From Gemmataceae bacterium (GTDB lineage: Bacteria > Planctomycetota > Planctomycetia > Gemmatales > Gemmataceae), in assembly GCA_036783645.1 (NCBI GenBank), contig DAIPWT010000009.1, positions 9,118 to 73,117 on the forward strand: 64,000 nt of DNA. Direction: 5' to 3'. The notes under the pieces are model-generated. The model was given only the letters and a program-made list of their open reading frames with translations. It had not been told where the DNA came from and ran no database searches. Shown piece after piece: positions 21,985 to 39,313 of this stretch. Both the position numbers and the translations under genes were made by a program. Numbering within the stretch: position 1 is the stretch's first letter; the number at the start of each line of letters is the position of its first letter.

Positions 21985-21995
21985 GTTTTTGGCGC

Positions 21996-22781: not shown

Positions 22782-22798
22782 ACATTGGAGGAGTGAAC

Positions 22799-23169: not shown

Positions 23170-23379
23170 ATGGCGACCATTACCGCCGTCTACGAGAACG
23201 GGATGTTTCGGCCCACAGGGCCGGTCGATTTGCCAGAAGGAGCGACCGTGCATGTCGTAGCGGCTCCGGTTCGCACGGAACAAGACGAAGCCAGACGACG
23301 AGTGTTCGAGATTCTGTCGCAGTCCTACGATACGGGCGACCCCGAAGCCGCCGCCCGCCACGACGAACATCAGCCATGA
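23170..23379 (+). CDS. DUF104-type antitoxin (AF2212-like), cognate of a PIN toxin
   Basis: MATITAVYENGMFRPTGPVDLPEGATVHV is the canonical N-terminus of this family. Its stop overlaps the start of the PIN remnant (ATGA). Confidence 0.7.
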   Translation: MATITAVYENGMFRPTGPVDLPEGATVHVVAAPVRTEQDEARRRVFEILSQSYDTGDPEAAARHDEHQP

Positions 23380-23757: not shown

Positions 23758-24009
23758 TCACCAGCGGCGCGAGGGTTGCCTCGTTGACCCCAAGGTCTAC
23801 GCGGGACTCTATTTTATCTAGCGTCGGCGTTAGCGGGCACGCTTTGTTAGCGACTCTCGTCGGCGGGCCATCGCGTCAGTGCTTGGAGGAAATCCACGGC
23901 GGCTGACTGCCAGCGGCCGAGGCGGAATTCGGCCCTGCAACGGCGGCATATAGCGGGGCGTCGGCCGGGACTGATTCGGCTTTTCTTTACTGGCCCGGCA
24001 TCCCTTCCA

Positions 24010-25344
24010 GTGATAGAATTCGCGCAATATCTTCATTCCGTCAACTTCGAGGGCGCAGGTGTGCCAGAAAAACGCTTCACGGTTCTTTCGCTGTTCTCTG
24101 GCGGGATGGGTCTCGACATCGGACTCGAACAGACCGGCCGGTTCGAGCATCTGGCGTGCGTTGAGAAGATTCCGGCTTTCTGCGAGACGATCCGGCGTAA
24201 CCGGGATGCTGGACTTGTCGGCGATCGGAATCTCCGCGTTTACGAAAGGGATATTGCAGAACTTGATCCATTTGCGGTTATGGCTGAACTCGGTGTGAAA
24301 CCGTGCTCCGTTGATCTTATCGCGGGCGGCCCGCCGTGTCAGGCGTTTAGCGTTTTCGGCAAACGACGAGGGCTGGCTGACAGGCGCGGCGAGCTCCTTC
24401 TGGAATATCTGCGCTTCGTGGAGGCCTTTCGACCGCGTACCTTTCTCATGGAAAACGTGCGCGGCCTGCTTTCGATGACCACCGCGGAGGATCAGCACAA
24501 AGGTGCTCTGTTTGAGATGGTCCAGGACCGGTTCGACCACCTCGGTTACCGAACCGATTGCTTCGTTGTTAATTCAGTGAATTACGGCGCGCCGCAAATA
24601 CGCGAACGAATGATTGTCATCGGCAATCGCTACAATTTGTCGGCCGATTTTACACGCCCGACCCACAGCGATCACCCCGAAGAAAACCTTCCCGTGTTCG
24701 CCACGCTCGGAGACGCCATCCACGGTAAGGCGGACCCGGACCCGACCCTTATGCACTTCAGCGAGCGAAAGCAGAAATATCTGGCGATGGTCCCGCCCGG
24801 TGGGAACTGGCGCTCACTCCCACTACCCATCCAGAAGGAGTCCATGGGAAAGAGCTTCTTTCTCAAGGGCGGAAGGTCGGCGCACTGGCGCAAATTGTCG
24901 TTCGAGTTTCCCTGCCCGACCATAATGACCATGCCCAACCACGCTGGGACCAGCATGTGTCATCCGGAACTGCTCCGCCCGCTCACGGTCGGCGAGTGCG
25001 CACTCGTTCAGGGCTTCCCACCGGAATGGGCCTTCGTTGGTACGCCAGGGGAAAAGTACCAGCAGGTGGGAAACGCGGTCCCCATCGTGTTGGGCCGCCT
25101 TGGGGGCGGTTCCGTTATCGACCTACTGGAACAAATCATCTCGATCCAAAATCCCGCGCCGGGACCGATCCTGCCTAACCGTGTCTTACACTTGCGACCG
25201 CATGTGCGGACACGATGTTGGTGGAAGGACGGCCAGATTATCGATGGCCTGCCTTACTCGCAACGCCCGGGGCGAAAAAAAACTCGCATGGAGGGGCCGT
25301 CCCTTTTCGATTGGATTCCGCCCTCGACCGAAGGGGAGTTGTAA
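24010..25344 (+). CDS. DNA (cytosine-5)-methyltransferase
   Basis: Motif I LFSGGMGLD, motif IV GGPPCQAFS, motif VI ENVRGL, motif X QVGNAVP. Confidence 0.92.
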   Translation: MIEFAQYLHSVNFEGAGVPEKRFTVLSLFSGGMGLDIGLEQTGRFEHLACVEKIPAFCETIRRNRDAGLVGDRNLRVYERDIAELDPFAVMAELGVKPCSVDLIAGGPPCQAFSVFGKRRGLADRRGELLLEYLRFVEAFRPRTFLMENVRGLLSMTTAEDQHKGALFEMVQDRFDHLGYRTDCFVVNSVNYGAPQIRERMIVIGNRYNLSADFTRPTHSDHPEENLPVFATLGDAIHGKADPDPTLMHFSERKQKYLAMVPPGGNWRSLPLPIQKESMGKSFFLKGGRSAHWRKLSFEFPCPTIMTMPNHAGTSMCHPELLRPLTVGECALVQGFPPEWAFVGTPGEKYQQVGNAVPIVLGRLGGGSVIDLLEQIISIQNPAPGPILPNRVLHLRPHVRTRCWWKDGQIIDGLPYSQRPGRKKTRMEGPSLFDWIPPSTEGEL

Positions 25345-26198
25345 TGGTGGCTCACACCGAATGCGTTGCGGGAACTGCGAAAGAAACGAGCCTGTTTCTC
25401 GGGCGTCGCCTTCGTAAATTGCGCACGCAAATAGGCGGCGTACTGAACGTCAACCCTTTTCTAATGCGCGCTCTGAAAGACTTCCATCAGATCACAGACC
25501 AGTTGTCCCTCGCACAGTTTCTACTAACCTCGCATCTCGGCGGCGGTCACGCCACAGGTTTCGGCAAGATGATTGATGAGAAAGTATTGCCCCATGTATT
25601 TCAGACGAAGCGGCTTGACTCGACTTGCCGGGACGTATCCCCGTACAACAAAGAAATCTTCGATGACATTGATCATCTTGTCACGAAGAGCGACGGTGTT
25701 TACCTTTTGTCCCTGAAGGCCGGAGCCTGGTCCATTCAACTCGGTCAGGCAATGGGTTTGTATCGTCACTTTCTGGCGTTAGGCGAGCAAGGGCTTCAGT
25801 CGCGCGGAATCGTCGTGGGCGTTTTCTACGGGCATAAGGGATTGCTGACAGATAAATATCGCGTCGTCAAAGGAGAAAATATACGACACCAGTCGGAGAT
25901 GCGGAAACTTGATTACGTCGAGGTCAAGGCGGGGGCCGCTTTCTGGTCGTGGTTGAACGACGACGAGAAAGCCACTCAAGAATGGATCCTCGAAGGGATC
26001 GCTAAAGGCGCCGACGAATTCATGGCCAATACGCCAGATATGAAGGAGGTGGCAGGGGGCGCCGCTCATCGGCTGGTTCTGGAGTTGAGAGAGAAATACG
26101 GTCTTTCCGCCGCCGGCGCGATCGATTGGCTCTTCCTTCTTCACGCCGTCAACGACGACAAGGGAGAACAACTCGGAGCAGAGGCCGTCGAGCCTTAG
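25344..26198 (+). CDS. type II restriction endonuclease candidate (PD-(D/E)xK-like), partner of the C5 methyltransferase
   Basis: ATG overlaps the methylase stop (TAATG). [21 protein letters not shown] fits the D...(S/E)xK pattern. Same A/T-richer composition as the methylase. Confidence 0.6.
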
Positions 26199-27054
26199 CC
26201 ACAATCCTAGAGTGCTTGGTTGATGCGAAGCCACATGGCGCCAAATCTAAACTTGTCCCTTTACCGCTTCCTTCCGCTTCCTCGCGCTCCTTTTCGCCGC
26301 GCGCCTGTTCCGGCGCCATGTATTCCGGCGTACCCACGCCCTGCGACTGTGAAGCCTCGCCCGCTCCGCCCATCCGCTTGGCCAAACCGAAGTCGGCGAC
26401 GTGCGGCTCACCGGACGCATCCAGCAGGATGTTGCCCGGCTTCAGGTCGCGGTGCAGCAATTGCCGTTGATGGGCATAATGTACCGCCCGCGCCGCCGTC
26501 GCCGTCAGCTTGGCCGCCGCCTTCGCATCGTTGTGGTATCGCTCAAGGCGCCCAGACAGGCTGCCGCCTTCGACCAACTTCATGGTGAAGAAATGCAAGC
26601 CGCCGTGTTCGCCGACTTCGTAGACCGGCACAATATGCGGATGGTCCAGACGCGCCGCCTCGTCGGCTTCTTGGCGAAAGCGGCGCACGTCATCCGCATC
26701 GGCCAACTCGCCGGAGCGGATCACCTTGAGGGCGACCATACGCTCGGGCGCCAGTTGTCTGGCTCTGTAGACGACGCCCATACCGCCGTGGCCGATTTCC
26801 TCCAGCAGTTCGTAGCCGCCGAAGCGGCGCGGCAGGCGCCCGGCAGCGGCGTTGTCCGACGCACCGGAAGTCGGCGTGTACGCCGTCGCATGAGGGTCGG
26901 CGGGCGCGTCGGAGTAGCGCGTGCCGGCCGCGTCGTCGGTGGAAACAGGGATTGCCGGCGCGCCGGCGTAGCGCGTCGCCGCCGGATCGGAAGGCGTTGC
27001 GCCGTAGTTGGTGGCGTCGTGGTCGCCCTGTCGGCCATCGTTGTGGGGGGACAT
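26149..27054 (-). pseudogene. Ser/Thr protein kinase, C-terminally truncated after subdomain VIII
   Basis: [40 protein letters not shown] are present. After APEQARGEK the ORF reads unrelated sequence and overlaps the endonuclease 3' end. Confidence 0.75.
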
Positions 27055-28548: not shown

Positions 28549-28860
28549 TCAAGACAGCGCCACGCAGGCATTCGGCTTCTCCGTGAAGAAGCGGTGCAAG
28601 ACGCGAGCGACGTTCTTTGCCGTGGACAGGGGCAACCACTTGCCGTCTTCCGCTTCGTATTCCACTTCCGGTTCCCCGGCCAGCTCAAACCGGAGTCCCT
28701 TGGCGAACGCCTCCAGAGCCTTTACGCCCCCAGGTGAGCTGGCCACGAATCGCTCGCCGTAACGAATAGGTTGCCTGTGACTCAGCAAGGGATTGTAAGC
28801 CGCCAGGCTCCGCCCGTCAACGCACCCCGCCGCGCTTTGCCGGCGGTTATCGGCGCTCAT
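28549..28860 (-). CDS. 103-aa hypothetical protein, divergent from the AAA ATPase gene
   Basis: ORF with coding-like composition; no motif. Confidence 0.35.
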   Translation of the reverse strand: MSADNRRQSAAGCVDGRSLAAYNPLLSHRQPIRYGERFVASSPGGVKALEAFAKGLRFELAGEPEVEYEAEDGKWLPLSTAKNVARVLHRFFTEKPNACVALS

Positions 28861-28956
28861 CCCCAGCTATTCCCCCTCCATCTCACCTGCCCACACGCCC
28901 GCTCCGCAGGGTACACTCGATGTCCGCGCTCAGTCCCCGCAGCTTCAAGGTGCATC

Positions 28957-30024
28957 ATGTCCAAGCGTCCCTCCACCGCCGCCCGCGTACGGCCGATGAG
29001 CGAAGTCGAGGCCCGGCCGGTCGAATGGCTGTGGCCGGGCTGGATTCCGTTGGGCAAGGTGACTGTACTCGACGGCGATCCCGGTCTGGGTAAATCGACC
29101 CTTCTTTTCGACCTCGCCGCCCGCGTCAGCCGCGACGGCGTGATGCCCGACGGGGCGGTCGGGCCGGTCGGCGCGTCGCTCATCCTGTCGGCCGAGGACG
29201 GCGAGGCGGACACCATCAAGCCGCGCTTGGCCGCGGCCGGCGGCGATATGACGCGGCTGTTCACGCTCTCGGCCGTGCGCGGCGACGACGGCGAGGAGCG
29301 GACGCCGGAGATACCGCGCGACCTGCCGGTGATCGAGGCGGCCGTGGCCGAGCGCGGCGCCCGGCTGCTCGTCATCGACCCGCTCATGGCGTATCTGACC
29401 GGCGTGGACGCCAGCCGCGACCAGGACGTGCGGCGGGCGTTGTTCCAGCTGGCCCGGCTGGCGGAACGGCGGGGCTGCGCGGTGGTCTGCCTACGGCACC
29501 TAAACAAGACCAACGGCGACAAGGCGATCTACCGCGGCGGCGGCAGCATCGGCATCATCGGCGCCGCGCGGGCGGGCCTGCTCGTGGCCGCCGACCCCGA
29601 CGACCCGCAAAGACGCTTATTGGCCGTGACCAAGTGCAATCTGGCGTTGCCGTCGCGGCCCTTGCGGTTCGCCCTGGCGCCGCGCGACGGCGTCTGCCGG
29701 GTGGAATGGCTGGGCGAAGCGGACTTCGAGGCGGACGAATTGGTGCGGCGAATGTCGTCGGCGGAGCGGGCCGAGCGCGAGGAGGTGCGCGGCATGTTGG
29801 TCGAAGCGATGGGCTTCCTGCGCGACCTCTTGGCCACGGGGCCGAAGCCGAGGTCGATGTGCTACCTCACCGGCGAGGCGGCCGGCTATTCGCGGCGAAC
29901 GCTGGAGCGAGCGGTACGGACGCTCGGTTTGACGACGGCTTTCGGCGACCGCCACGCGGCTGGTGAAGCGACCTACGGCTTGCCGACGCCGGGCGGTGCG
30001 GAACTTGGCGGGTTGGCGGGTTGA
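28957..30024 (+). CDS. RecA-fold AAA ATPase (AAA_25/RepA-like), typical of integrative or replicative mobile elements
   Basis: VEWLWPGWIPLGKVTVLDGDPGLGKSTL (Walker A), LLVIDPLMAYL (Walker B), CLRHLNKT. Start at ATG 28957. Confidence 0.75.
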   Translation: MSKRPSTAARVRPMSEVEARPVEWLWPGWIPLGKVTVLDGDPGLGKSTLLFDLAARVSRDGVMPDGAVGPVGASLILSAEDGEADTIKPRLAAAGGDMTRLFTLSAVRGDDGEERTPEIPRDLPVIEAAVAERGARLLVIDPLMAYLTGVDASRDQDVRRALFQLARLAERRGCAVVCLRHLNKTNGDKAIYRGGGSIGIIGAARAGLLVAADPDDPQRRLLAVTKCNLALPSRPLRFALAPRDGVCRVEWLGEADFEADELVRRMSSAERAEREEVRGMLVEAMGFLRDLLATGPKPRSMCYLTGEAAGYSRRTLERAVRTLGLTTAFGDRHAAGEATYGLPTPGGAELGGLAG

Positions 30025-30035
30025 GCCGTAAAGCC
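29979..30035. repeat. left copy of an imperfect direct repeat bracketing the PLD-SNF2/methylase cassette (3' end of the AAA ATPase gene)
   Basis: CTTGCCGACGCCGGGCGGTGCGGAACTTGGCGGGTTGGCGGGTTGAGCCGTAAAGCC encodes ...LPTPGGAELGGLAG*. Compare 37384-37438. Confidence 0.75.
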
Positions 30036-30160
30036 TCGATATTCTCATCTTTCCTGCGTGAGTTACTAAGCTAAGGGAAGAATGTGGCAAGCGGCGGCCG
30101 TTAGGAAACGGTCTTCCGGCTTACGCGGACTTTCCGCGCAACGTAAGACGATAAACCACC

Positions 30161-33100
30161 ATGTCAGACAGCCATCCTCCCACTCCGAAAAAATTCCTCA
30201 CCAACCAGGGCGACAACACGCTCAGCAAACGGCTCGAAAAAATCCTGCCGCTCACGCAGGACTTCGATTGCCTCGTCGGTTATTTTTTCATCAGCGGCTT
30301 CTTCCGCCTTTACCCCGCGCTCGAATCGGTCAAGAAAATACGCATCCTCATCGGTCTAAAAAATGAGCAGGTCGTTCACGGCCTCATTCAAATCGCCAAC
30401 GAGGACTCCGCGGAAAGCGTCCCGTCCACGGCAGAGGTCAAGAGAACCTTCGGCGGGATGATGCGAAGCGAGTTGATCCAAGCGCAGGATTCACTCGCCA
30501 TCGAAACGGGCATCCGAAAGTTCATCGAGTGGATTCGCTCGGACAAGCTGGAGGTGAAGCTCTATCGGGAGCAGAACATCCACGCGAAGGTCTACATCAT
30601 GACGCCGGAGCATCCGGTGCAGGACGTGAACCACGGCTACGTCATCACCGGGTCAAGCAATCTTTCGCACAGCGGCTTGGAGGGAAATCTGGAGTTCAAC
30701 GTGTTGCTCGCGGAGCCGGAGGAACACGATTATGCACTGCATCGGTTCAACGAACTTTGGGCGGACGCCGTGGACGTGAAGGACGTTCACGACACGATCA
30801 TTACCACGGTGGAAAAGGAATCCCCCTTCGCCTTCTTCACCCCCTACGAACTCTACCTGAAGTTTCTCGCTGACTACTTTCGCGATTACTTGGGCGACCG
30901 CTCGAAGCTGAATGCGGAAAACCTGCCGCAGAATTTCAAGAAGCTGCAATACCAAGAGGATGCCGTCTTCACCGCACAGCAGATGCTCAAGACCTACGGC
31001 GGCGTCTTCCTCGCCGATGTCGTTGGCTTGGGCAAAACCTACATTTCGGCGTTGCTGGCCCTGCAACTCGATGGCCGTTGCCTGGTCATCGCATCGCCAA
31101 GCCTTCTCGATGAAAACAGCCCCGGCTCATGGCCGCGCGTGTTGCGCGACTTCTGCATCCCCGGCCACAAGTGCGTTTCCATCGGCAAGCTTGAAGAGGT
31201 CCTGGAACAGGGCGTCGAGTTCTACAAATACGTCTTCATTGACGAATCCCACCGCTTCAAAGGTGATTCCACACAACGTTACGAGTTGCTCACACGCATC
31301 TGCCAAAACAAGGGCGTCATTCTGGTTTCCGCCACCCCATACAACAACGCGCCGGACGACATCTACAGTCAGTTAAAGTTGTTCCAGCCTGCCCGCAACA
31401 GCACTATCCCCGGACTCCGCAATCTGGAAACGTTTTTCGAGAAGCTGCGAAACCGCCTCAAGGGGCTGCATCGTCTCGACGACGCCGAGGACTACCTGGC
31501 GGCGGTCGAGCTGAACGCTCAGGAACTGCGGGATCGCGTGCTCAAGTATGTCATGGTCCGCCGCACTCGCCGCGAGGTTGAGGAGTTTTACGGCGAGGAC
31601 CTCAAAAAGCAGAAGATCTGGTTCCCGAAGGTCAACGATCCCATTCCGCTGCTCTACCAGCTCAAACCGAAAGAAAGCGCAGTCTTCACAAGCACGCTGG
31701 AGAGCATAACCAGCTCCGACTTCCACTACGCTCGCTACCAGCCCCTAAACCCACTCTACTTCACCGGGCCGATTGAAGACCGCGCTGTGCAAGGCCAGCG
31801 CAACCTCGCCAAGTTCATGAAAATACTGCTCGTGAAGCGGTTGGAAAGCAGTTTCTACGCCTTTCAGAAAACCCTCGGTCGATTTATCCATTCCCATCAA
31901 CTCGTACTCCAGGCCTTCGACGACGGATTCGTGTATACAAGCAAGAAGCACAGCCACAAGGTGCTGGAGTTCTTGGAAGATGGCGACGATGACGCCATTG
32001 ACGCTCTGATCCAGGCGGAGAAAGCCGAGAGGTTCGCAACCGCTGAATTCACTCCCATCTTCCGGGAGCATGTCGCGTCGGACTTGGCCGTGCTTCAAGA
32101 GGTCCAGCGCGTGTGGAAAACCATCAAGCGCGATCCGAAATGGGTGGAATTCAAACGCGAACTCGCCGCGCAACCGGCGTTCAAGAAGGGAAAGCTTATC
32201 ATCTTCAGCGAATTCGCTGACACCGCTTGCTATCTCGCGGCAGGCATCAAAAAGGAAGTGGACGACAAGACGCTCCTTTTCAGCGCCGCATCAAGCCCCG
32301 CGCTACGCCGTGAAGTCATCGCCAACTTCGATGCCAACAGCAGCGAGAACCGCGACGATTACCGCATCCTCGTCACCACCGACGTTCTGGCGGAAGGCGT
32401 GAATCTCCATCGCTCGGCCACCGTCATCAATTACGACATTCCCTGGAACCCGACCCGCATGATGCAGCGAGTCGGGCGCGTGAACCGCGTCGGCACCAAG
32501 TTCAAAGCGCTCTTCACCTACAACTTCTTCCCGACCGATGAGGGCAATGACGAGATTGCCTTGACCGAGGCCGCCAAGTCGAAGATTCACGCGTTCATTA
32601 CTCTGCTGGGCAACGACGCGCGCCTGCTTACGGGTGACGAGAAAATCACCTCGCACAACCTCTTCGACCGTATCAACTCCAAGGAAGCAGTCGAGGGCGA
32701 CCCGGCCGAGCCCAAGAGCGAGCTAAAGTATCTGGGCCAGATCCTTGCCGTGAAACAAACCAAGCCAGAACTTTTCCAGCGCATCCTGGCCCTGCCGCCG
32801 AAGGCGCGTTCGACGCGCGCTCACGCCCCCGAACCGGCGGCGGCGGACCACCCCGACGCCGCGCCGGCGCCTGACCGCCCCGCCCTCATCACCTATTTCC
32901 GCCAAGGCCGCCTCGACAAATTCTTTCGCGCCCACGCCGGCGCCGACCGCGCCGAAGAACTCGACTTCTTCACCACCGCCGAAACCCTCGAAACGACGGC
33001 CAAGGAACCGCGCCAAGACATTCCGCCAGCGCATTTCTATCCGCTGCTGGATAAGAACAAGGAAGGATTCCAAAAAGCAACCACGCCCAGCCTCGAAACC

Positions 33101-33430
33101 TTGGCGCCGCCCACGGCGGCCGGCAGCGGCAACGAGGCGATCCTCCTGAAGCGACTCCAGGCCAAGGATTTCCGCGCCTATGCCGCGCTGACGCCCGACG
33201 ATCGCAAGTTCGCCGCCGCCGTGAGGCAAATCATTACCGACGGCCGCGTCGGCAAGCACACCATTCGTAAAGTGAAAGAGGCGTTCGATAAAACGGCCGA
33301 TCCCGCCGAGATGTTCGCCATTCTCCGCAAGGAAATCGCCCGTCAATACCTCCTCGGCCCAGCGCCCAAGCCCGATAAGGACGCGCCGCCGGCCGCGCGT
33401 GAAGTCATCCTCTCCTCTTATCTGCCGTAG
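30161..33430 (+). CDS. PLD-family nuclease domain fused to an SNF2-family helicase/translocase
   Basis: HKD motif IHAKVYIM...ITGSSNLS. SNF2 motifs I LADVVGLGKTY, II FIDESHRFK, III SATPYNN, V TTDVLAEGVNLH, VI QRVGRVNRVG. Followed by an Ala/Pro-rich, GC-rich tail of about 220 aa. Confidence 0.9.
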   Translation: MSDSHPPTPKKFLTNQGDNTLSKRLEKILPLTQDFDCLVGYFFISGFFRLYPALESVKKIRILIGLKNEQVVHGLIQIANEDSAESVPSTAEVKRTFGGMMRSELIQAQDSLAIETGIRKFIEWIRSDKLEVKLYREQNIHAKVYIMTPEHPVQDVNHGYVITGSSNLSHSGLEGNLEFNVLLAEPEEHDYALHRFNELWADAVDVKDVHDTIITTVEKESPFAFFTPYELYLKFLADYFRDYLGDRSKLNAENLPQNFKKLQYQEDAVFTAQQMLKTYGGVFLADVVGLGKTYISALLALQLDGRCLVIASPSLLDENSPGSWPRVLRDFCIPGHKCVSIGKLEEVLEQGVEFYKYVFIDESHRFKGDSTQRYELLTRICQNKGVILVSATPYNNAPDDIYSQLKLFQPARNSTIPGLRNLETFFEKLRNRLKGLHRLDDAEDYLAAVELNAQELRDRVLKYVMVRRTRREVEEFYGEDLKKQKIWFPKVNDPIPLLYQLKPKESAVFTSTLESITSSDFHYARYQPLNPLYFTGPIEDRAVQGQRNLAKFMKILLVKRLESSFYAFQKTLGRFIHSHQLVLQAFDDGFVYTSKKHSHKVLEFLEDGDDDAIDALIQAEKAERFATAEFTPIFREHVASDLAVLQEVQRVWKTIKRDPKWVEFKRELAAQPAFKKGKLIIFSEFADTACYLAAGIKKEVDDKTLLFSAASSPALRREVIANFDANSSENRDDYRILVTTDVLAEGVNLHRSATVINYDIPWNPTRMMQRVGRVNRVGTKFKALFTYNFFPTDEGNDEIALTEAAKSKIHAFITLLGNDARLLTGDEKITSHNLFDRINSKEAVEGDPAEPKSELKYLGQILAVKQTKPELFQRILALPPKARSTRAHAPEPAAADHPDAAPAPDRPALITYFRQGRLDKFFRAHAGADRAEELDFFTTAETLETTAKEPRQDIPPAHFYPLLDKNKEGFQKATTPSLETLAPPTAAGSGNEAILLKRLQAKDFRAYAALTPDDRKFAAAVRQIITDGRVGKHTIRKVKEAFDKTADPAEMFAILRKEIARQYLLGPAPKPDKDAPPAAREVILSSYLP

Positions 33431-33467
33431 AGGAGGCGTGTCGTTTACTTGGGTGACCTTTACGCTG

Positions 33468-33610
33468 GGTGCCATGCTTTCGCGGCCGCTTTCGGAACCG
33501 AGACAGCGGCAGGGCCGCCGCGAAAGCATGTTGCTCTCGCGCGGCAGACATGCTTTCGCGGGTCGCCGCGAGGGATTCTCACTCCGACGGGGCCGCGAAA
33601 GCATGGCACC
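33468..33610. repeat. nested GC-rich palindromes (ATGCTTTCGCGG family) between the helicase and methylase genes
   Basis: GGTGCCATGCTTTCGCGGCC ... GGCCGCGAAAGCATGGCACC outer arms, with internal CGCGAAAGCATG / CATGCTTTCGCG copies. Confidence 0.8.
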
Positions 33611-33687
33611 CAGCGGATCGGATCGGAACGCGGCGACAAAGGGAAGTTTCCCCCAGTATCAGCGCACACACCCGTAGAGATTCTCCT

Positions 33688-36600
33688 ATGGAAAAGAGCA
33701 CCGCTCAACGCCTTGTCCGCGACACGCTCAAAGCGCCGTTTGATCGAAAACGCTACCGCGATTTCATCAACGAACTCTGCAATGGCTTCGATGAATCCAA
33801 GAAGCAGTCCATGCAGGTTCCGGACGCCTTCGTCCCGCACGCCAAATCTTGCCAACGTCTCGGCACCTTTACCAGCCCCGAAGGCGAGAAGGCCGATGTA
33901 CTCGTCGTCCAACTCACCGAATCCTACAAGTTGGATCGCACGCGCACCGCGCTGCGCGACTTTGTGGCCCACAAGCTCAAACGCGGCGAAGGCGACGACA
34001 ACGCCTATAAAGAAGCCGGCCTCGTCGCTTTCGTCGCGCCTGATTCGCAATCCTGGCGATTCTCTTTTGTCCGCATGGAATATTCAACCAAGCGCGATCC
34101 GAAGACCGGCAAGATTAAACCGGAAGAGCGATTGACCCCGGCGCGGCGGTTCTCCTACCTCGTCGGCGTGGACGAGGAATGTCATACCGCCCAGTCGCGC
34201 TTTCTCACTCTTCTGCAAAACACGGCCGACCATCCGACCCTGGCCCAGATCGAGGATGCGTTCAGCGTTGAGGCCGTCACCAAGGAATTCTTCCGAGAGT
34301 ACGCCCGGCTGTTCGCGGACGTTGACGCCGCGCTGGTCGCCGTCGTGAAGCAGGACAAGGCTGTTCGCGACGACTTCCAGGCCAAGGGCGTCGGCACGGT
34401 CGAATTCGCCAAGAAACTGCTCGGCCAGATCGTTTTTCTCTATTTCATCCAGAAAAAGGGCTGGCTCGGCGTCGCCAAGGGCGGCAAGTGGGGCGAGGGC
34501 CCGCGCCATTTCATGCGGCAGCTTATGGAACGGGGCCTCGCCGCGAAACAATGCCTCTTTGACGACGTCCTCGAACCGCTGTTCTACGACACCCTCGCCA
34601 CCGATCGCGGCCCCGATGCCTGGTGCAAAACCTTCCAGTGCCGCATTCCCTTCCTCAACGGCGGCTTGTTCGAGCCGATCGCCGGTTATGAATGGAAAAA
34701 GACGCACATCGACTTGCCCAACGACCTCTTTACCAACACGCAGCGCTCCAAGGAGGGCGACGTCGGCACGGGTATCCTCGACGTTTTCGACCGCTACAAC
34801 TTCACCGTGAACGAAGCGGAGCCGCTGGAAAAAGAAGTCGCCATCGACCCGGAGATGCTCGGCAAGGTCTTTGAGAACCTCATTGAGGAAAACCGCCGCA
34901 AGGGGCTTGGCGCCTATTACACGCCGCGCGAGATCGTCCATTACATGTGCCAGGAAAGCCTCATCAACTATCTCGACACGGCCTTGAACATGACGCGCGA
35001 ATCGCTGGGCGCGGAGAAAGCAATCCAAGGCAACTTCTTTGGTCAAGCCGCCCCTGCGCAGAAAGCGCTCAAGGTCACGACGCGCCGCGAGATTGTTCCC
35101 CGCGCCGACATCGAGATGTTCATCCACCAGGGCGAACAAATCTCCCACTATGAGGCGGTGGAGACGAAGTATCGCATCACGATGCCCAAAGCCATCGAGA
35201 AAAACTATCGCCTGATCGACGAAAAACTGGCCGACATTACCATCTGCGACCCCGCCGTCGGCTCCGGGGCGTTCCCGGTCGGCATAATGACCGAGATAGT
35301 CCGCGCTCGCATCGCACTCACGCCCTATTTCACCGACGTGGCGGAACGCACTCCCTACTACTTCAAGCGTCACGCCATCCAATCCAGTCTCTACGGCGCG
35401 GACATCGACGTAGGCGCCGTTGAGATCGCCAAGCTACGGCTCTGGCTCTCGCTCGTGGTGGACGAGGAGGACGTTCAACAGATCAAACCGCTGCCAAACC
35501 TCGACTATAAGGTAGTAGTCGGCAACTCCCTGATGGGCGTGAAGAAGAACCTGATCAACATCGAGCAATTCAAGGAGCTGGAAGCCTTGAAACCCAAGTT
35601 CTTTGACGAGTCCAATCGAACCAAGAAGGCGGAATACAAGCGACAGATCGAGGAACTCATCCATGTACTGACCAACGGACGCGAGGAGTTCGACTTCGAG
35701 ATTTACTTCTCCGAGGTTTTTCATGCCAAGGGCGGCTTTGATGTGGTGATCGCCAACCCGCCATATTTGAATTCTCGAAGCATGGCAAAAGAAAGCCCCG
35801 AAATGCGCAAATTGATTCAGGCTGCCTATTCAATGACGAAAGGTAGTTGGGACATCTACATCGCCTTTTTTGAAAAAGGTTTCCGTCTTCTGAACCAAAC
35901 AGGGGTACTCACTTTCATAACGCCAGACAAATGGATTTCCAAACCGTTCGGCGATGAACTGCGAATTCAAACCAATTCCAAGATATTCAGTATTCTCAAA
36001 GCCGGTCGTGGGGTATTTGAAAGTGTCAACGTGGACGCGATAGTTTCCATATATGTGAATGTGGCCCAGCCATTCCTGCGAATTCTTGAGGTTGTAGGAA
36101 CAGACATGCGATTAAAGACCACTGTCCAGAAGAGTAGCTTGAAGTCTCCTTTCCCCTACGACTCGCTATTCTCCAACTGCGGGGACTTTTTGGCAAAGAT
36201 CGATAGGCATCCCGGTAGATTGTCTGAACTCGGACTTTGCGAAAATTCTTGCGCGACGGATGACGCATATAGACTGCGCGAATTTATCGAAGAAGAATCC
36301 CAAACCGCTAGACAAGATCTGTATCTTCGGATGATTAACACTGGCACAATCGGGAAGTATCTTTCAAAATGGGGACAGCGGGAGATGGTTTATCTGGGGA
36401 GCAGGTATTCGCGGCCTGTCGTCAATAAGAAGCGGTTTCTTCAGGCATTTCCGAAGTCGTATGGAAAGAAATCCGTCAGGAAGAAAATCATATTGAAGGG
36501 TCTAAACTTGTTGGATGCTTGTTTAGATGCAGATGGGTGCGTGATCCCGGGCATACCGACGCTTGTGATCCCATGCGACGACGCAGAAACTCTGAAACTG

Positions 36601-36900
36601 CTCCTTGCCATAGTGAATTGCGCATTGGCGTTCTTCTACATCAAGGAGAAATACCCGTCTTCGAGCTACAACGAGGGAACCACGTTCACTAAGGATATGT
36701 TAAACGAGCTGCCGCTCCCGAAGCTTGAGCCGAGCGACAAGGCCAACCTTGTTGAACTTGTGGACCAAATCCTCGCTGCGAAAGAGAGCGATGCCGGGGC
36801 GGACGTGAGCGCGTTCCAACGGAAACTGGACAAGCTGGTGTATGATCTCTATGGCCTAGAGCCGGAGGAAATCAAACTCGTGCAAGGCATCCCCGGCTAA
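33688..36900 (+). CDS. Eco57I/TaqI-like gamma-class N6-adenine DNA methyltransferase with C-terminal target-recognition domain (no nuclease domain recognised)
   Basis: GAYYTPREIV, motif I ICDPAVGSGAFP, LYGADID, motif IV VIANPPY, long C-terminal TRD. Start at ATG 33688 (MEKSTAQRL). Confidence 0.9.
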   Translation: MEKSTAQRLVRDTLKAPFDRKRYRDFINELCNGFDESKKQSMQVPDAFVPHAKSCQRLGTFTSPEGEKADVLVVQLTESYKLDRTRTALRDFVAHKLKRGEGDDNAYKEAGLVAFVAPDSQSWRFSFVRMEYSTKRDPKTGKIKPEERLTPARRFSYLVGVDEECHTAQSRFLTLLQNTADHPTLAQIEDAFSVEAVTKEFFREYARLFADVDAALVAVVKQDKAVRDDFQAKGVGTVEFAKKLLGQIVFLYFIQKKGWLGVAKGGKWGEGPRHFMRQLMERGLAAKQCLFDDVLEPLFYDTLATDRGPDAWCKTFQCRIPFLNGGLFEPIAGYEWKKTHIDLPNDLFTNTQRSKEGDVGTGILDVFDRYNFTVNEAEPLEKEVAIDPEMLGKVFENLIEENRRKGLGAYYTPREIVHYMCQESLINYLDTALNMTRESLGAEKAIQGNFFGQAAPAQKALKVTTRREIVPRADIEMFIHQGEQISHYEAVETKYRITMPKAIEKNYRLIDEKLADITICDPAVGSGAFPVGIMTEIVRARIALTPYFTDVAERTPYYFKRHAIQSSLYGADIDVGAVEIAKLRLWLSLVVDEEDVQQIKPLPNLDYKVVVGNSLMGVKKNLINIEQFKELEALKPKFFDESNRTKKAEYKRQIEELIHVLTNGREEFDFEIYFSEVFHAKGGFDVVIANPPYLNSRSMAKESPEMRKLIQAAYSMTKGSWDIYIAFFEKGFRLLNQTGVLTFITPDKWISKPFGDELRIQTNSKIFSILKAGRGVFESVNVDAIVSIYVNVAQPFLRILEVVGTDMRLKTTVQKSSLKSPFPYDSLFSNCGDFLAKIDRHPGRLSELGLCENSCATDDAYRLREFIEEESQTARQDLYLRMINTGTIGKYLSKWGQREMVYLGSRYSRPVVNKKRFLQAFPKSYGKKSVRKKIILKGLNLLDACLDADGCVIPGIPTLVIPCDDAETLKLLLAIVNCALAFFYIKEKYPSSSYNEGTTFTKDMLNELPLPKLEPSDKANLVELVDQILAAKESDAGADVSAFQRKLDKLVYDLYGLEPEEIKLVQGIPG

Positions 36901-36956
36901 TTTCCCTCGTTCCCGAACTCCTGTTTTTGCCTGACCCGATTGTCCGTTCGGTGCCA

Positions 36957-37342
36957 TCACAAGGACCGGATGCCGTTTCCCATTGGAACGGTCAGGCACT
37001 GACGTTCCTCAGTCGCATCGCCGTCAAAAAGGAACTGCATCCATCGGTTCCCACGGACGCGCCTGCGTCGCAAGAGCGCCTCCGCTTGTTTTGGCCAATC
37101 GTGGAGCGTGGCCGGATCAAAGTCGGCGCCGTTCGGCCAAACCAGGGTATGCACTTCGGGATCCATTCGTACTTGATGAAACAGGGCGGAATCCCGCAGC
37201 GGGCGCGGTAAAGTTCCCCGGCCAAGACCGGCTCAAAGTCGATACCTTGTTCCGTTTGGTCGTCAAATTGCACGCAAAGGCTGTAAGGCCCCATAATCTG
37301 GAACGACGTCACGCGATAAATCGGATGCCCTGTCATCGTCAT
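36957..37342 (-). pseudogene. DUF2442-family protein with a 1-nt frameshift
   Basis: The N-terminal half (YRVTSFQIMGPYSLCVQFDDQTEQGIDFEPVLAGELYR) and C-terminal half (PLRDSALFHQVRMDPEVHTLVWPNGADFDPATLHDW) are in different frames. The switch is at CGCGCCCGC, about 37195. Confidence 0.6.
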
Positions 37343-37383
37343 GCCTCCAGGGGATAAATCGGCAATGGCGAAGCGATATACGC

Positions 37384-37438
37384 CCGCTAACCCCGGGTGG
37401 CGTAGAGCTTGGCGGGTTGGCGGGCGAGCCGTAAACCC
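37384..37438. repeat. right copy of the direct repeat: displaced relic of the AAA ATPase 3' end
   Basis: CCGCTAACCCCGGGTGGCGTAGAGCTTGGCGGGTTGGCGGGCGAGCCGTAAACCC reads ...PLTPGGVELGGLAGEP* in one frame. Followed by the complementary CCCGCCAACC motif at about 37462. Confidence 0.7.
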
Positions 37439-37522
37439 TTAATGGGAAAGGAAAGATTAGCCCGCCAACCGTCCCGCCAAATCCGAGGTTTGGCGGGCAG
37501 CTGGCGGGACTTTGGCAGGCGG

Positions 37523-39205
37523 TCACGGCAGCAGTTTCACAATCTCCTCGAAGGTTTTGTGAAACTCTTCCGGAGTGTACTCCGCCGTCGCTTTCAAAAC
37601 CTGCGGCAGGAAGTCCTCTATCTCGGCCCGTCGGTGTTCCTTCACTTTGTCCGGGTCTTTTTTATATTCCTCGTCGGCAACGCCTTCACCCGCGTTCGGT
37701 AGCTTCAGGTTTAAGCTCGCGTCGAGCTTGGCAAGCTGCGCCACAATGGCCGCCTGATTCTCCTTCAGACGCATGTCCTCCGCGTCCTTGGAGTCTTCGG
37801 CTGCCCGCCGTAGGTCGTCGTAAATCGCTTCAAAGGCCCATGCGGTCCTGCGGGCCGCGTCATAATCCGGCGTCGCGCCCGCCGCCGGCTTCGCGGCCGA
37901 GTTGGCCAGACGCTTCAACAGTTCCCGCGCCGCCTTTTTGCTAAACGCCGATTCATGGGCCCCGTCGGTTTTCATCGGCGCATTCAGCTTGGGAAGCAAC
38001 TCATCGTCCATCAACGCGACCAGAGCCTGGGCGGTCTTTTTGACCTCGGCGTTATCGCCGAACGGGCGCCGGCCGAAGCTCTGATACAGAGAAGCGACGC
38101 CGTTCTTGAGATCGGCCGCGAACTTCTGATCGCGCTCTTTGTCCATCCCGGCCGCCTGCCAGTTGCACAGGTCCATCACGGCCGCCGACCACGAGCGCGG
38201 CCCCGGCCGGCCCGGCGCGCCGTTGTAGCCGCGCTCCTGGCGCCAACTCGGTTGGTGTAAATCGTGGTGACAGGCGGCGCAGTCGAACAGGGCGAAGTCG
38301 AGAACTTGTTTATCCTTGTCGGCCTGTTCGGCCTTTTGGGCCAACAGGTTGACGGCCTCGCGGAAGGCCGCCGCGCCGCCCGCCACCACCAACTTCGTCT
38401 GCTCCAGTTCCGTCGGATCCCACTGATACTGGGCCTTCTGCATTTCACGGGCTTTTTCGTTCATCAGCTGCCAGTGTCGCGGCAGGCTGTTACAGAAAAC
38501 GGCCGTCTCGAAAGCCGGCAGCGGCGGATGCCCGCCCGCATACATATCGTGCGTCACCAGCCGATGTTTATCCGGGTCGGCGTCGCCGATGTGACACGAC
38601 GCACAGACTTTTGTCCGCTTTACCGGATCCCAAAGGTCGGTCATGCCGAACTTTTCTTGCTTGTAGGTGCGATCCAGTTTGCGCCAGGCCTTGCGTGTTT
38701 CTTCGTCGCTAGTTCCATGCACATCGATCCAATTGTTCCAGGGGCCATGACAGGCGAGACAGCTGACCCCTTTCGCAATCACCTTATCGTCGATCTTCGT
38801 CTTCGCCAGTAGGTTGACGGAAACCATGCTATGGCAACCGAGACAATCCTGATCTTTTTCAGGCGCGACGTCGGAGCCGCGTAGTTTGTTGATGCGCTTA
38901 GCCCGCTCGCCGCCGAGAAGGACGTAAGCGTCCTGGTGCTTGTCGTTTTGTTCCCAAAATGTTCGCTCGTTGCAGCGACACAACGGCTGGAGGTCTGTGC
39001 TTTCCGGCGGGGTGCCGAAAGTGTGGCAGACGTTGCACCGACCGGCGTCTTGAACGCTCGGCCTTAGCGGGACGACGGGGATGCCGCCATTCGCGGGCGG
39101 ATCGTCTTTCGCCTCACCGTGCCCCATTAGGCCCCAAGCCGCGACCGCCGCTACGACGAGGGCGGACGCCAACCGAAGCCGCCGCGCATGAATTATAGAC
39201 ATCAC
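37523..39205 (-). CDS. secreted multihaem c-type cytochrome (five CxxCH)
   Basis: Signal-like N-terminus. CNVCH, CLGCH, CLACH, CASCH, CAACH. Confidence 0.85.
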   Translation of the reverse strand: MMSIIHARRLRLASALVVAAVAAWGLMGHGEAKDDPPANGGIPVVPLRPSVQDAGRCNVCHTFGTPPESTDLQPLCRCNERTFWEQNDKHQDAYVLLGGERAKRINKLRGSDVAPEKDQDCLGCHSMVSVNLLAKTKIDDKVIAKGVSCLACHGPWNNWIDVHGTSDEETRKAWRKLDRTYKQEKFGMTDLWDPVKRTKVCASCHIGDADPDKHRLVTHDMYAGGHPPLPAFETAVFCNSLPRHWQLMNEKAREMQKAQYQWDPTELEQTKLVVAGGAAAFREAVNLLAQKAEQADKDKQVLDFALFDCAACHHDLHQPSWRQERGYNGAPGRPGPRSWSAAVMDLCNWQAAGMDKERDQKFAADLKNGVASLYQSFGRRPFGDNAEVKKTAQALVALMDDELLPKLNAPMKTDGAHESAFSKKAARELLKRLANSAAKPAAGATPDYDAARRTAWAFEAIYDDLRRAAEDSKDAEDMRLKENQAAIVAQLAKLDASLNLKLPNAGEGVADEEYKKDPDKVKEHRRAEIEDFLPQVLKATAEYTPEEFHKTFEEIVKLLP

Positions 39206-39240
39206 ATCGCTCCCAGAGGGTGACGTAGGGTGCGTTCCTA

Positions 39241-39296
39241 CGAACCCGAAGCGCGAGCGAGGCGCTCGACTGCATTCCTCGCTTGCGCTTCGGGTT
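39241..39296. repeat. REP-like palindrome (GAACCCGAAGCGCGAGCGAGG arms)
   Basis: Inverted repeat between the two cytochrome genes. Confidence 0.75.
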
Positions 39297-39313
39297 AGTA
39301 GATCGGTGTACTA

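What the first reader, a model, noticed from the sequence alone, without database searches (positions are those of the whole stretch)
29979..37438. 7.4-kb PLD-SNF2 helicase-nuclease plus N6-adenine methylase cassette bracketed by a duplicated 3' end of the AAA ATPase gene
The last codons of the AAA_25 ATPase gene (29979-30035, ...LPTPGGAELGGLAG*) recur 7.4 kb downstream (37384-37438), where one frame reads ...PLTPGGVELGGLAGEP*. The DNA shares CTTGGCGGGTTGGCGGG and GAGCCGTAAA blocks, plus weaker similarity for about 25 nt upstream. Between the copies lie only a PLD(HKD)-SNF2 fusion, an Eco57I/TaqI-like methyltransferase with its own TRD, and a frameshifted DUF2442 gene. Duplication of a gene's 3' end at both borders is the signature of site-specific integration into that gene end. 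Yet no integrase or transposase lies inside, so the cassette was either mobilised in trans or exchanged by another route. Functionally the pair resembles predicted ATP-dependent restriction systems. It combines DISARM-like parts (PLD as in DrmC, SNF2 as in DrmD, adenine methylase as in DrmMI) but lacks the DrmA/DrmB core, so it is not DISARM. A two-gene PLD-SNF2 plus methylase module travelling as a bounded cassette deserves attention.
Basis: partly seen in the sequence, partly recalled or inferred. Interest (0 to 1): 0.72.

Follow-up and report, generated by a model that had tools for sequence, protein, structure and literature searches.

The report
Restriction-like gene pair between two helicase-gene copies
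A horizontally acquired two-gene restriction-modification-like defence module sits between a complete replication-helicase gene and the eroded stump of a second copy of that gene, so the "duplicated gene end" is a decay scar and not the footprint of a self-inserting cassette.

Summary
An ~80-nt direct repeat (29956-30036 and 37359-37439) brackets 7.3 kb that holds only a PLD(HKD)-SNF2 gene, a gamma-class N6-adenine methyltransferase gene and a frameshifted DUF2442 gene.

The repeat is not a target-site or att duplication. The two copies are only 75% identical, as different as AAA_25 alleles from different genomes.

The right copy is a pseudogenised AAA_25 C-terminus. It is still joined to a conserved cis module of six TTGGCGGG/CCCGCCAA octamers, which in intact relatives follows the AAA_25 stop codon directly.

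A relative with the same cytochrome flank (L010) also has two tandem AAA_25 units. They enclose different cargo, and its right unit keeps the 5' leader and first codons. Whole units were therefore duplicated, not just a 3' end.

The PLD-SNF2/methylase pair is adjacent in every other context examined, down to 52% identity. Those contexts share no flanks and show no flanking repeats. The catalytic motifs are invariant.

It is best read as an untested ATP-dependent R-M-like system with Type ISP/Type III-like logic. It is not DISARM and not a DUF499-centred BR system. No recombinase and no empty site were found.

Verdict: moderately interesting, a new member of known kinds.

The parts
28840..28956 (+). 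Conserved ~118-nt leader of AAA_25 unit 1
   Evidence: It aligns with the region upstream of AAA_25 in six other loci whose further-left flanks are unrelated (A4). blastn homology to L019 begins at 28849. The motif CCTGCCCACACGCCCGCTCCGC at 28886 is unique in the window.
28957..30024 (+). AAA_25 (RecA/DnaB-like replication helicase-type ATPase) gene, 355 aa, intact. Walker A GDPGLGKS is at 29074-29097.
   Evidence: Pfam AAA_25, 2.1e-35. PHROG matches to the C-terminal helicase part of phage primase/helicases. Called as 355 aa in public records. Many homologs are Prim-Pol fusions. GC is 0.714 against 0.634 in the flanks.
29956..30036 (+). Left repeat copy: the last 22 codons of AAA_25, the stop codon and about 12 nt beyond
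   Evidence: Homology to the intact relative L019 ends at 30035.
30004..30020 (+). Core 17-mer CTTGGCGGGTTGGCGGG (two TTGGCGGG octamers, coding for LGGLAG)
   Evidence: It is invariant across all related loci (A1).
30037..30160 (+). Cassette leader upstream of PLD-SNF2. It has no homology to AAA_25 units or to other instances of the pair.
30161..33430 (+). PLD(HKD)-SNF2 helicase-nuclease, 1089 aa. Motifs: HxK at aa 141-143, GSSN 164-167, Walker A GLGKT 289-293, DESH 361-364, motif VI QRVGRVNR 769-776.
   Evidence: Pfam PLDc_2, SNF2-rel_dom and Helicase_C. PADLOC C3a139 'HKD+Snf2', 4.7e-47. Motif positions. The motifs are invariant in 16 homologs down to 51% identity (A3).
33463..33615 (.). Palindromic MITE/REP-like insert: 25-nt perfect terminal inverted repeat and four alternating CATGCTTTCGCGG units. 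It lies in a 257-nt spacer that the other instances lack.
   Evidence: (I1, I23). The two genes abut or overlap in L016, L017, L018 and at the P0220 places.
33688..36900 (+). Gamma-class N6-adenine DNA methyltransferase, 1070 aa. It has a conserved N-terminal domain, motif I DPAVGSGAF (aa 521-529), NPPY (aa 690-693) and a divergent C-terminal target-recognition region.
   Evidence: Pfam Eco57I, 2.1e-35. PADLOC REase_MTase_IIG, 6.8e-233. PDB matches to the CamA, TaqI and BseCI methylases. Homology to other instances starts at 33688 and drops out over about 35.9-36.8 kb.
36957..37342 (-). DUF2442 pseudogene (one frameshift)
37359..37434 (+). Relic of a second AAA_25 unit: the last ~27 codons with a 1-nt frameshift, core 17-mer at 37408-37424, ancestral TAA at 37432-37434
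37435..37510 (+). Distal half of the cis module: an AT-richer spacer, CCCGCCAA x2 (37461, 37473), then TTGGCGGG (37490) and CTGGCGGG (37501). It folds as two hairpins.
   Evidence: DNA fold -29.7 kcal/mol, z = -2.57. The same arrangement follows the AAA_25 stop codon in L019, L008 and L009, and it is 77% identical to the L010 module.
37523..39202 (-). Multihaem cytochrome gene, the conserved right flank. It is syntenic with L010.

Best explanation
The 7.4-kb interval is a cargo bay between two tandem, same-orientation copies of an 'AAA_25 unit'. One unit consists of a ~118-nt conserved leader, a RecA/DnaB-type replication-helicase gene, and a cis module of six TTGGCGGG/CCCGCCAA octamers that starts in the last codons of the gene. 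The units belong to decayed integrated elements that carry conflict and defence genes in planctomycete genomes.

The left unit is intact but has lost the distal half of its module. The right unit has been deleted down to its last 27 codons plus the module.

The cargo is a horizontally acquired operon that most likely works as an ATP-dependent restriction-modification system. In this reading the methyltransferase, through its variable target-recognition domain, marks host sites with m6A and supplies sequence recognition. The PLD-SNF2 protein is the restriction subunit. It would be loaded at unmodified sites, translocate on DNA with its SNF2 motor and cut with its single HKD domain, which must pair with a second copy to form an active site. 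The domain order matches a Type ISP enzyme (nuclease, motor, methylase, TRD) split into two polypeptides. It can equally be described as a Type III Mod/Res pair with a different nuclease and motor.

Shown:
- the repeat and the nature of the relic;
- the conserved module;
- the tandem units in L010;
- the conserved adjacency of the gene pair and its intact motifs;
- foreign base composition.

Inferred:
- the order of events that produced two units (tandem accretion or recombination between related elements, followed by deletion);
- the function of the module (origin iterons, recombination site or terminator);
- complex formation between the two proteins;
- the restriction mechanism.
For: Repeat and relic.

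The copies are as divergent as alleles of different genomes. W_left versus W_relic is 75% identical; W_left versus L019 is 85%; W_relic versus L019 is 81%.

Intact arrangement. In L019, whose gene is 89% identical in nucleotides to the window's, the stop codon is followed directly by the module. Window homology breaks at 30035 and resumes at 37367-37497. L008 and L009 show the same arrangement.

The octamers cluster only at this site in every locus examined.

In gene-less remnants (L010, L011, L012, L013) the octamers stay invariant while the spacers drop to 53-66% identity.

L010 shares the cyt560/cyt581 flank. It has a full AAA_25 gene, 2.7 kb of different cargo, and then a second unit that retains the leader and about 22 codons fused to the core.

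L011 is a similar internal deletion.

Cargo. GC is 0.565 against 0.634 in the flanks. Homologs with 74-85% amino-acid identity occur in Gammaproteobacteria and Betaproteobacteria.

PLD-SNF2 is followed directly by an Eco57I/TaqI_C methylase at every other place examined, covering four different homologs. Catalytic motifs are invariant. The TRD region is variable.

HKD-helicase plus methylase operons have been predicted to be R-M systems in the literature (PMC2292703; PMC12839542).
Against: - No full-length second unit was seen at this locus, so tandem whole-unit duplication in the window is inferred from L010 and not observed directly.
- The 17-nt core is identical in both copies. That would also fit a crossover at that point.
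- No experimental evidence exists for methylation, restriction or interaction of the two proteins.
- The methylase matches a PADLOC 'Type IIG' profile at 774 bits. It might therefore cut DNA by itself, which would leave the role of PLD-SNF2 open.
- Neither element boundaries nor an integrase were found for the larger island.
Confidence: 0.6

Rival explanations
1. The cassette entered by site-specific (or short-homology, Campbell-type) recombination at the AAA_25 3' end, with CTTGGCGGGTTGGCGGG as the crossover core. It was catalysed in trans by a recombinase encoded elsewhere. The incoming circle carried its own ~78-nt AAA_25-like segment, which explains why the copies are similar but not identical.
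For: The 17-nt core is identical, and 27 of 30 positions match from core to stop, against 64% identity upstream. This pattern is expected if exchange happened in the core. The adjoining array of direct and inverted octamers resembles recombinase arm sites. Remnants in L010 and L013 begin at the core. The module lies at the island/host boundary in the window, L010 and L011.
Against: The core is invariant in all alleles, so identity there carries no information about where a crossover happened. There is no integrase or transposase in the cassette or in the window ORFs scanned. The other pairs have no flanking repeats, no shared ends and no AAA_25 fragment. The second unit in L010 includes the 5' leader and N-terminal codons, which a 3'-end att duplication does not predict. 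No empty site or alternative occupancy was found in 8 population contigs.
Confidence: 0.13
2. One-step replacement by homology-facilitated illegitimate recombination. Incoming DNA carrying a foreign AAA_25 allele plus the cassette recombined homologously on the left, inside or upstream of AAA_25. On the right it joined illegitimately 73 nt before the end of the resident gene, leaving the resident 3' end as a relic.
For: The relic together with its module is closest to the orthologous L010 sequence (77% for the module; 24/26 over the retained coding part, from my own count on the alignment). The complete gene is closest to L019, which lies in a different context. The complete gene (GC 0.714) and the cassette (GC 0.565) both differ from the flanks.
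Against: The differences in identity rest on few positions. The AAA_25 gene and the cassette differ strongly from each other in GC, so they are unlikely to have had a long shared history. L010 shows that two units can coexist at this locus, so no one-step replacement is needed.
Confidence: 0.15
3. A functional rival. The methyltransferase is a self-sufficient Type IIG restriction-modification enzyme with a nuclease in its conserved N-terminal domain. PLD-SNF2 would then be a separate or auxiliary defence effector and not its restriction subunit.
For: PADLOC REase_MTase_IIG profile at 6.8e-233, covering residues 74-861. The N-terminal 135 residues are confidently modelled as an alpha/beta domain (pLDDT 84-94) with invariant D70, K81, R86 and R90.
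Against: No Pfam nuclease domain is detected. No PDB structural match has E < 0.05. There is no E-x-K or comparable catalytic triad in the invariant columns. The gene is strictly adjacent to PLD-SNF2 in all contexts examined, usually with overlapping or abutting stop and start codons, which suggests one complex.
Confidence: 0.2
4. The shared sequence is a dispersed REP-type repeat or a chance match with no historical meaning.
For: The genome does carry REP-like palindromes (33463-33615, 39238-39301, 12607-12682). A related genome has three copies of the module.
Against: There are only two sites in 64 kb, with a score far above background. The relic reads as an AAA_25 C-terminus over 27 codons. 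All copies of the module in other genomes are AAA_25 ends or their remnants.
Confidence: 0.02

Closest known systems
Type ISP restriction-modification enzymes (LlaGI, LlaBIII), from my own knowledge of the literature
   Same: The domain order is the same: nuclease, SF2-type ATPase motor, gamma-class N6-adenine methylase, TRD. The expected logic is also the same: recognition of unmodified asymmetric sites, ATP-driven translocation, then cleavage.
   Different: Here the functions are split between two polypeptides. The nuclease is a PLD/HKD domain instead of an Mrr-type PD-(D/E)xK domain. The motor is SNF2-type. phmmer against the PDB found no sequence similarity to solved Type ISP structures.
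Type III R-M (Mod/Res)
   Same: Two subunits. The methylase carries the TRD. A helicase-nuclease fusion acts as the ATP-dependent restriction subunit. The Pfam ResIII motif is weakly matched.
   Different: Res proteins have a C-terminal PD-(D/E)xK nuclease and a Rad25-like helicase. Mod is beta-class. Here the nuclease is an N-terminal HKD domain, the motor is SNF2, and the methylase is gamma-class Eco57I-type.
DISARM class 1 (DrmA, DrmB, DrmC, DrmD, DrmMI)
   Same: There are homologous parts: an SNF2 domain (DrmD-like, 1.8e-34), a PLD domain (as in DrmC) and an Eco57I-type adenine methylase (DrmMI-like, 8.4e-28).
   Different: There is no DrmA and no DrmB/DUF1998. The DrmD score is far below the NCBIfam cut-off (131 against 610 bits). 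PLD and SNF2 are fused into one protein.
Type-2 BREX-related (BR) / Hma-type DUF499-centred systems (PMC12839542)
   Same: The effector is an N-terminal HKD nuclease fused to a Swi2/Snf2 helicase, paired with an N6-methyltransferase. The authors interpret it as R-M-like.
   Different: BR systems are defined by a DUF499 AAA+ ATPase, and Type-2 also by DUF3780. Neither is present in the cassette. The HmaA profile matches only the helicase C-terminal lobe (5.8e-22).
PADLOC candidate 'C3a139 HKD+Snf2', from a type III CRISPR accessory-gene survey (PMC6546367)
   Same: This is the best profile match for the PLD-SNF2 protein, 4.7e-47 over residues 92-811.
   Different: It is a candidate family defined by neighbourhood to CRISPR loci. 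There is no CRISPR-cas here, and the family has not been characterised functionally.
Rep-plus-iteron modules of integrative satellites and plasmids (for example phage P4 alpha with the octamer iterons of ori/crr), from my own knowledge
   Same: A primase/helicase-family gene is followed at once by several copies of one octamer, in direct and inverted orientation, around an AT-richer spacer.
   Different: The protein lacks the Prim-Pol domain found in many homologs. Neither binding nor replication has been tested. The module sits at the island boundary, which would suit an att site equally well.

Membership tests
DISARM | Core triad of DrmA (helicase), DrmB (DUF1998) and DrmC (PLD) | tested here: not met
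   Only three genes lie between the repeats. Among the window proteins scanned with PADLOC, the only DrmA match is a weak one (2.2e-14) to the helicase lobe of the PLD-SNF2 protein itself, and there is no DrmB match.
DISARM | DrmD equivalog score for the SNF2 protein | tested here: not met
   NF038317 scores 131 bits against a cut-off of 610. NF038318 scores 70 against 950.
Type IIG R-M | A single polypeptide with methyltransferase and TRD | tested here: met
   Eco57I domain, motif I and NPPY are present, with a variable C-terminal region. PADLOC IIG profile at 6.8e-233.
Type IIG R-M | An endonuclease domain in the same polypeptide | tested here: inconclusive
   No nuclease Pfam match. In the AF2 model the N-terminal 135 residues are confident, but Foldseek against the PDB finds nothing with E < 0.05.
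Type III R-M | Res subunit made of a Rad25-like SF2 helicase and a PD-(D/E)xK nuclease, with a beta-class Mod subunit | tested here: not met
   The helicase is SNF2-type and the nuclease is HKD. The methylase has motif I before NPPY and an Eco57I-type fold.
Type ISP R-M | All activities in one polypeptide with an Mrr-type nuclease | tested here: not met
   There are two ORFs, separated by 257 nt here and abutting elsewhere. The nuclease is PLD.
BR (DUF499-centred) / Hma systems | A DUF499 AAA+ ATPase in the locus (plus DUF3780 for Type-2) | tested here: not met
   No such Pfam match in any ORF scanned in or around the cassette.
BR (DUF499-centred) / Hma systems | An HKD-Swi2/Snf2 effector paired with an N6-methyltransferase | tested here: met
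Site-specifically integrated cassette or island | A recombinase (tyrosine or serine integrase, or transposase) in the element | tested here: not met
   None in the cassette and none in the window ORFs scanned.
Site-specifically integrated cassette or island | Flanking direct repeats that are identical over the crossover segment | tested here: inconclusive
   A 17-nt identical core is present. However, that core is invariant in all alleles, and the repeat as a whole is 75% identical.
Site-specifically integrated cassette or island | An empty site in relatives, or excision products | tested here: not met
   All 8 population contigs are occupied and carry exact copies of the repeats. The only orthologous locus (L010) holds other cargo between two AAA_25 units. 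Circular forms cannot be tested with these tools.
Rep-iteron (origin) module | Several copies of one short motif next to the rep gene, conserved as DNA | tested here: met
   Six octamers within about 100 nt. They are invariant in 8 loci, including gene-less remnants, while the spacers diverge.
Rep-iteron (origin) module | The Rep protein binds the repeats and replication starts there | not testable with these tools
   This needs EMSA or footprinting and replication assays.

The most novel reading that the evidence does not exclude
The AAA_25 unit (leader, helicase gene and TTGGCGGG module) could be a previously undescribed docking platform for defence cargo in Planctomycetota. In this reading the octamer module is a recombination or replication site that is used repeatedly to capture or exchange cassettes between related elements, without a cassette-encoded recombinase. 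The tandem units and orphan modules would be the footprints of that process. The PLD-SNF2/methylase pair would also be a stand-alone, split Type ISP-like restriction system that has never been characterised.
Probability: 0.12. Interest if true: 0.6.

Novelty: new member of a known kind. Interest (0 to 1): 0.35.

Why it matters
The result shows how a "duplicated gene end" can mislead. Comparison with relatives turns an apparent integration footprint into the stump of a second gene copy.

It also documents a recurrent cargo bay next to a replication-helicase unit in planctomycete islands.

The PLD-SNF2 plus methylase operon is widespread, with thousands of relatives across phyla and about 80% identity between Planctomycetota and Proteobacteria. 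It is still annotated only as 'helicase' and 'methyltransferase'. Experimental proof that it is an ATP-dependent restriction system with an HKD nuclease would add a defined class to the R-M and defence catalogue. It would also clarify what the DrmD/DrmMI-like parts of DISARM and the BR systems do on their own.

Tried and rejected
1. Collection scans for the core-plus-stop pattern. Genome contigs gave only Planctomycetaceae MAGs plus one chance hit. Metagenome contigs gave two chance hits. Viral contigs gave none. A wider census of modules was therefore not possible.

2. Empty-site search by exact look-up of the cyt560 and PLD-SNF2 proteins. All contigs carry the same arrangement.

3. tRNA-linked island boundary. 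The only ARAGORN tRNA (12607-12682) is a perfect palindrome and probably spurious. It has no direct repeat elsewhere in the window.

4. Integrase hunt across the window. None found.

5. Nuclease in the methylase N-terminus. Pfam at E <= 1, phmmer against the PDB, and AF2 plus Foldseek were all uninformative.

6. Rfam search on 28-39.5 kb. Nothing reached a gathering score.

7. Promoter and terminator scan. Counts were no higher than in shuffles.

8. Membership of DISARM, BR/Hma, Type III and Type ISP. Each was rejected on a defining feature (see the membership table).

9. Flanking repeats around other PLD-SNF2/methylase pairs. None above background.

10. Exact left boundary of the remnants at the core. 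At first this looked site-specific. L012 then turned out to retain about 18 coding codons, and L010 retains the leader and N-terminal codons. The idea was dropped.

11. A named published system for this exact pair. None was found.

Full report
**Source and layout**

The window is from a Planctomycetales metagenome-assembled genome (GCA_002404095.1, contig DHJA01000232.1).

Around the finding the gene order is as follows:
- AAA_25 ATPase, 28957-30024, plus strand
- PLD-SNF2, 30161-33430, plus strand
- methyltransferase, 33688-36900, plus strand
- a frameshifted small gene, 36957-37342, minus strand
- two multihaem cytochrome genes on the minus strand, from 37523

Upstream lie other defence-type genes:
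- a C5-methylase with a type II endonuclease
- a PD-T4-6-like Ser/Thr kinase
- a MORC/MzaB-like GHKL ATPase

**Checking the observation**

A gapped local alignment joins 29956-30036 to 37359-37439 with score 64. The next best score anywhere in the window is 29, and the maximum against shuffled flanks is 37.

The 17-mer CTTGGCGGGTTGGCGGG occurs only at 30004 and 37408.

The right copy reads GNGEAIYA, then a 1-nt frameshift, then PLTPGGVELGGLAGEP*. Homologs end in the same way, for example P0003 with ...ALPTPGGAELGGLAGEP*. The relic is therefore a real, pseudogenised AAA_25 C-terminus.

The functional gene has a 1-nt insertion that creates an earlier TGA stop (LAG*), as seen in the sequence.

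The small minus-strand gene matches DUF2442 once its frameshift is repaired.

**What the repeated sequence is**

Close relatives of the AAA_25 protein were found and their contigs fetched.

In L019 the gene is 89% identical in nucleotides to the window gene. There the stop codon is followed directly by a structured stretch. It has an AT-richer spacer of about 30 nt, two CCCGCCAA, a short loop and two TTGGCGGG. The last codons of the gene themselves contain two TTGGCGGG (LGGLAG).

The window gene matches L019 up to 30035. The match resumes at 37367-37497.

L008 and L009 have the same contiguous arrangement.

The 7-mer TGGCGGG/CCCGCCA, the core of the octamers, clusters nowhere else in any of these loci.

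The module folds into two hairpins. What is conserved, however, is the octamer sequence itself, including in remnants that no longer encode anything (L010, L011, L012, L013), while the spacers fall to 53-66% identity. This points to a DNA-level cis element such as a protein-binding site, and not merely a terminator hairpin. No Rfam family matches.

Upstream of the gene, about 118 nt are also conserved in seven loci whose further flanks are unrelated. The recurring entity is thus a ~1.3-kb 'AAA_25 unit': leader, gene and module.

The protein resembles the helicase part of phage and satellite primase-helicases. Many homologs are Prim-Pol fusions.

**Is the bracket an integration footprint?**

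Several results argue against it.

1. The two copies are 75% identical over 75 nt (64% upstream of the core, 90% from core to stop). That is no closer than alleles from different genomes: W_left versus L019 is 85%, and W_relic versus L019 is 81%. The identical core carries no information, because it is invariant everywhere.

2. L010 is the only fetched relative that shares the cytochrome flank. It has a full AAA_25 gene truncated 14 codons before its end, then 2.7 kb of quite different cargo: REP palindromes, a frameshifted HUH/Y1-type ORF, an HNH gene and others. After that comes a second AAA_25 unit that retains the conserved leader and about 22 N-terminal codons fused to the core and module. 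Two whole units therefore stood in tandem at this locus, and the right one decayed by internal deletion.

3. L011 is a similar deletion derivative, with 42 N-terminal codons joined to the core across a CTTGGC microhomology. L012 keeps about 18 terminal codons. L013 keeps only the core. L022 is broken at about codon 295.

4. The relic in the window fits this series of variably eroded units.

5. No integrase or transposase domain occurs in the cassette or in the window ORFs scanned.

6. All population contigs carry exact copies of both repeats, and no empty site was found.

A crossover in the core, whether site-specific or Campbell-type, cannot be excluded. Neither can one-sided homologous replacement. 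Both are kept as rivals.

**The cargo**

PLD-SNF2 has thousands of relatives. Homologs with 74-85% identity occur in Competibacteraceae, Rhodoferax and other Proteobacteria.

The cassette GC is 0.565, against 0.634 for the flanks and 0.714 for AAA_25. This indicates recent horizontal acquisition.

At every other place examined, the PLD-SNF2 gene is followed at once by an Eco57I/TaqI_C-type methyltransferase gene. These places cover four homologs of 85%, 79%, 60% and 52% identity, and the stop and start codons usually abut or overlap. More distant versions on Thermus and Meiothermus plasmids also sit beside a DNA methyltransferase.

Nucleotide homology between instances starts at the PLD-SNF2 start codon and ends inside the methylase gene. 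It drops out over the C-terminal target-recognition region.

There are no shared flanks, and in L016-L018 there are no flanking direct repeats above background. The pair is a conserved operon, but not a bounded mobile cassette.

Catalytic residues are intact and invariant in 16 homologs: HxK and GSxN of a single HKD domain, Walker A, DExH, and motifs III and VI. The methylase has motif I and NPPY and matches the CamA, TaqI and BseCI methylases.

In the window the two genes are separated by 257 nt containing a 155-nt palindromic insert, which the other instances lack.

**Mechanism (inferred)**

The most likely function is an ATP-dependent R-M system.
- The methylase, through its TRD, marks and recognises the target site.
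- PLD-SNF2 is the restriction subunit. It translocates with the SNF2 motor and cuts with an HKD site that needs two copies.

The domain order (nuclease, motor, methylase, TRD) is that of Type ISP enzymes split into two proteins. The subunit logic is that of Type III.

A rival view is that the methylase is a complete Type IIG enzyme, since PADLOC gives 6.8e-233 to a IIG profile. Its N-terminal 135 residues form a confident alpha/beta domain with invariant D70 and K81. However, no nuclease family or PDB fold matched, so this remains open.

**Comparison with known systems**

- DISARM is excluded. There is no DrmA or DrmB, and DrmD scores 131 bits against a cut-off of 610.
- The DUF499-centred BR/Hma systems include a Type-2 form with the same kind of HKD-Swi2/Snf2 effector plus an N6-methylase. 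They are defined, however, by DUF499 and DUF3780, which are absent here.
- HKD-helicase plus methylase operons were predicted to be R-M systems as early as 2008.
- The best profile for PLD-SNF2 is the uncharacterised PADLOC candidate 'HKD+Snf2' (C3a139), which comes from a CRISPR type III accessory-gene survey.
- I found no paper that names or tests this exact two-gene system.

**Verdict**

The repeat is real, but it is the stump of a second AAA_25 unit and not a duplication made by cassette insertion.

The cargo is a widespread, horizontally mobile and still uncharacterised R-M-like pair.

Novelty: a new member of known kinds (R-M-like helicase-nuclease plus methylase; a defence cargo bay in a decayed integrated element). 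Interest is moderate at 0.35.

The most novel reading still open is that the octamer module is an active docking site for cargo. I give that about 0.12 probability.

Noticed in passing
window 12607-12682: The only tRNA called by ARAGORN (tRNA-Arg, TCT) is a perfect palindrome with a stem of about 24 bp (GTGGGGCAGGTTTCTAACCTGCC ... GGCAGGTTAGAAACCTGCCCCAC). It is probably a REP or terminator hairpin and not a tRNA. No copy of its 3' part occurs elsewhere in the window.
   Followed up: partly
window 33431-33687 (palindrome 33463-33615): A 257-nt spacer separates PLD-SNF2 from the methylase. It holds a 25-nt perfectly complementary terminal inverted repeat and four alternating CATGCTTTCGCGG units, and looks like a MITE/REP insertion. 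The two genes abut in all other instances. This is the only copy in the window.
   Followed up: partly
window 17617-27054: A string of other defence-type genes lies upstream of AAA_25. It includes a MORC/MzaB-like GHKL ATPase (17617-19605, minus strand), a GAF-cyclase with weak PycC similarity (19959-21800, minus strand), a C5-methylase (24010-25344) with a type II endonuclease (25215-26198), and a PD-T4-6-like Ser/Thr kinase (26149-27054, minus strand). In L018 a GHKL ATPase directly follows the PLD-SNF2/methylase pair.
   Followed up: partly
window 22793-23053; L010 11942-12196: An 86-aa ORF (phrog_2620, 'excisionase and transcriptional regulator') is 87% identical to an ORF in L010. In L010 that ORF lies inside the bay between the two AAA_25 units. 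In the window it lies 6 kb upstream of AAA_25. Cargo has evidently been shuffled around the units.
   Followed up: no
window 10024-11340 and 4672-5157; L008 744-2108 and 9529-9930: An HK97-type major capsid gene and a 161-aa ORF in the window have homologs in L008. There they flank the same kind of AAA_25 unit, within 8 kb. This hints that the units derive from a capsid-encoding satellite or prophage-like element.
   Followed up: no
L010 11030-11900; L017 13285-17271: The L010 insert begins with REP-like palindromes and a frameshifted HUH/Y1 (RAYT/IS200-like) ORF. In L017, and in homolog P0267, a Y1_Tnp domain (PF01797) is annotated inside the methylase ORF itself. Y1 transposase and REP elements seem to associate repeatedly with these loci.
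   Followed up: no
L011, L012, L013 (contig CAVYVK010000011.1): One Planctomycetaceae genome carries three copies of the octamer module, none with an intact AAA_25 gene. The gene side of L013 encodes an FtsH-ternary-system fvmX6 protein and a DUF4058 protein. L011 abuts ABC-transporter genes.
   Followed up: partly
window 39238-39301: A 25-nt inverted repeat (92% complementary, 14-nt loop) lies between the two cytochrome genes. Its arms (GAAGCGCGAGCGAGG) resemble a palindrome next to the L013 module (GAAGCGCAAGCGAAGG). It may belong to a lineage-wide REP family.
   Followed up: no
window 28957-30024: The AAA_25 gene has 71.4% GC against about 63% for the surrounding genome. The adjacent cassette has 56.5%. 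The two neighbours are compositional outliers in opposite directions.
   Followed up: no
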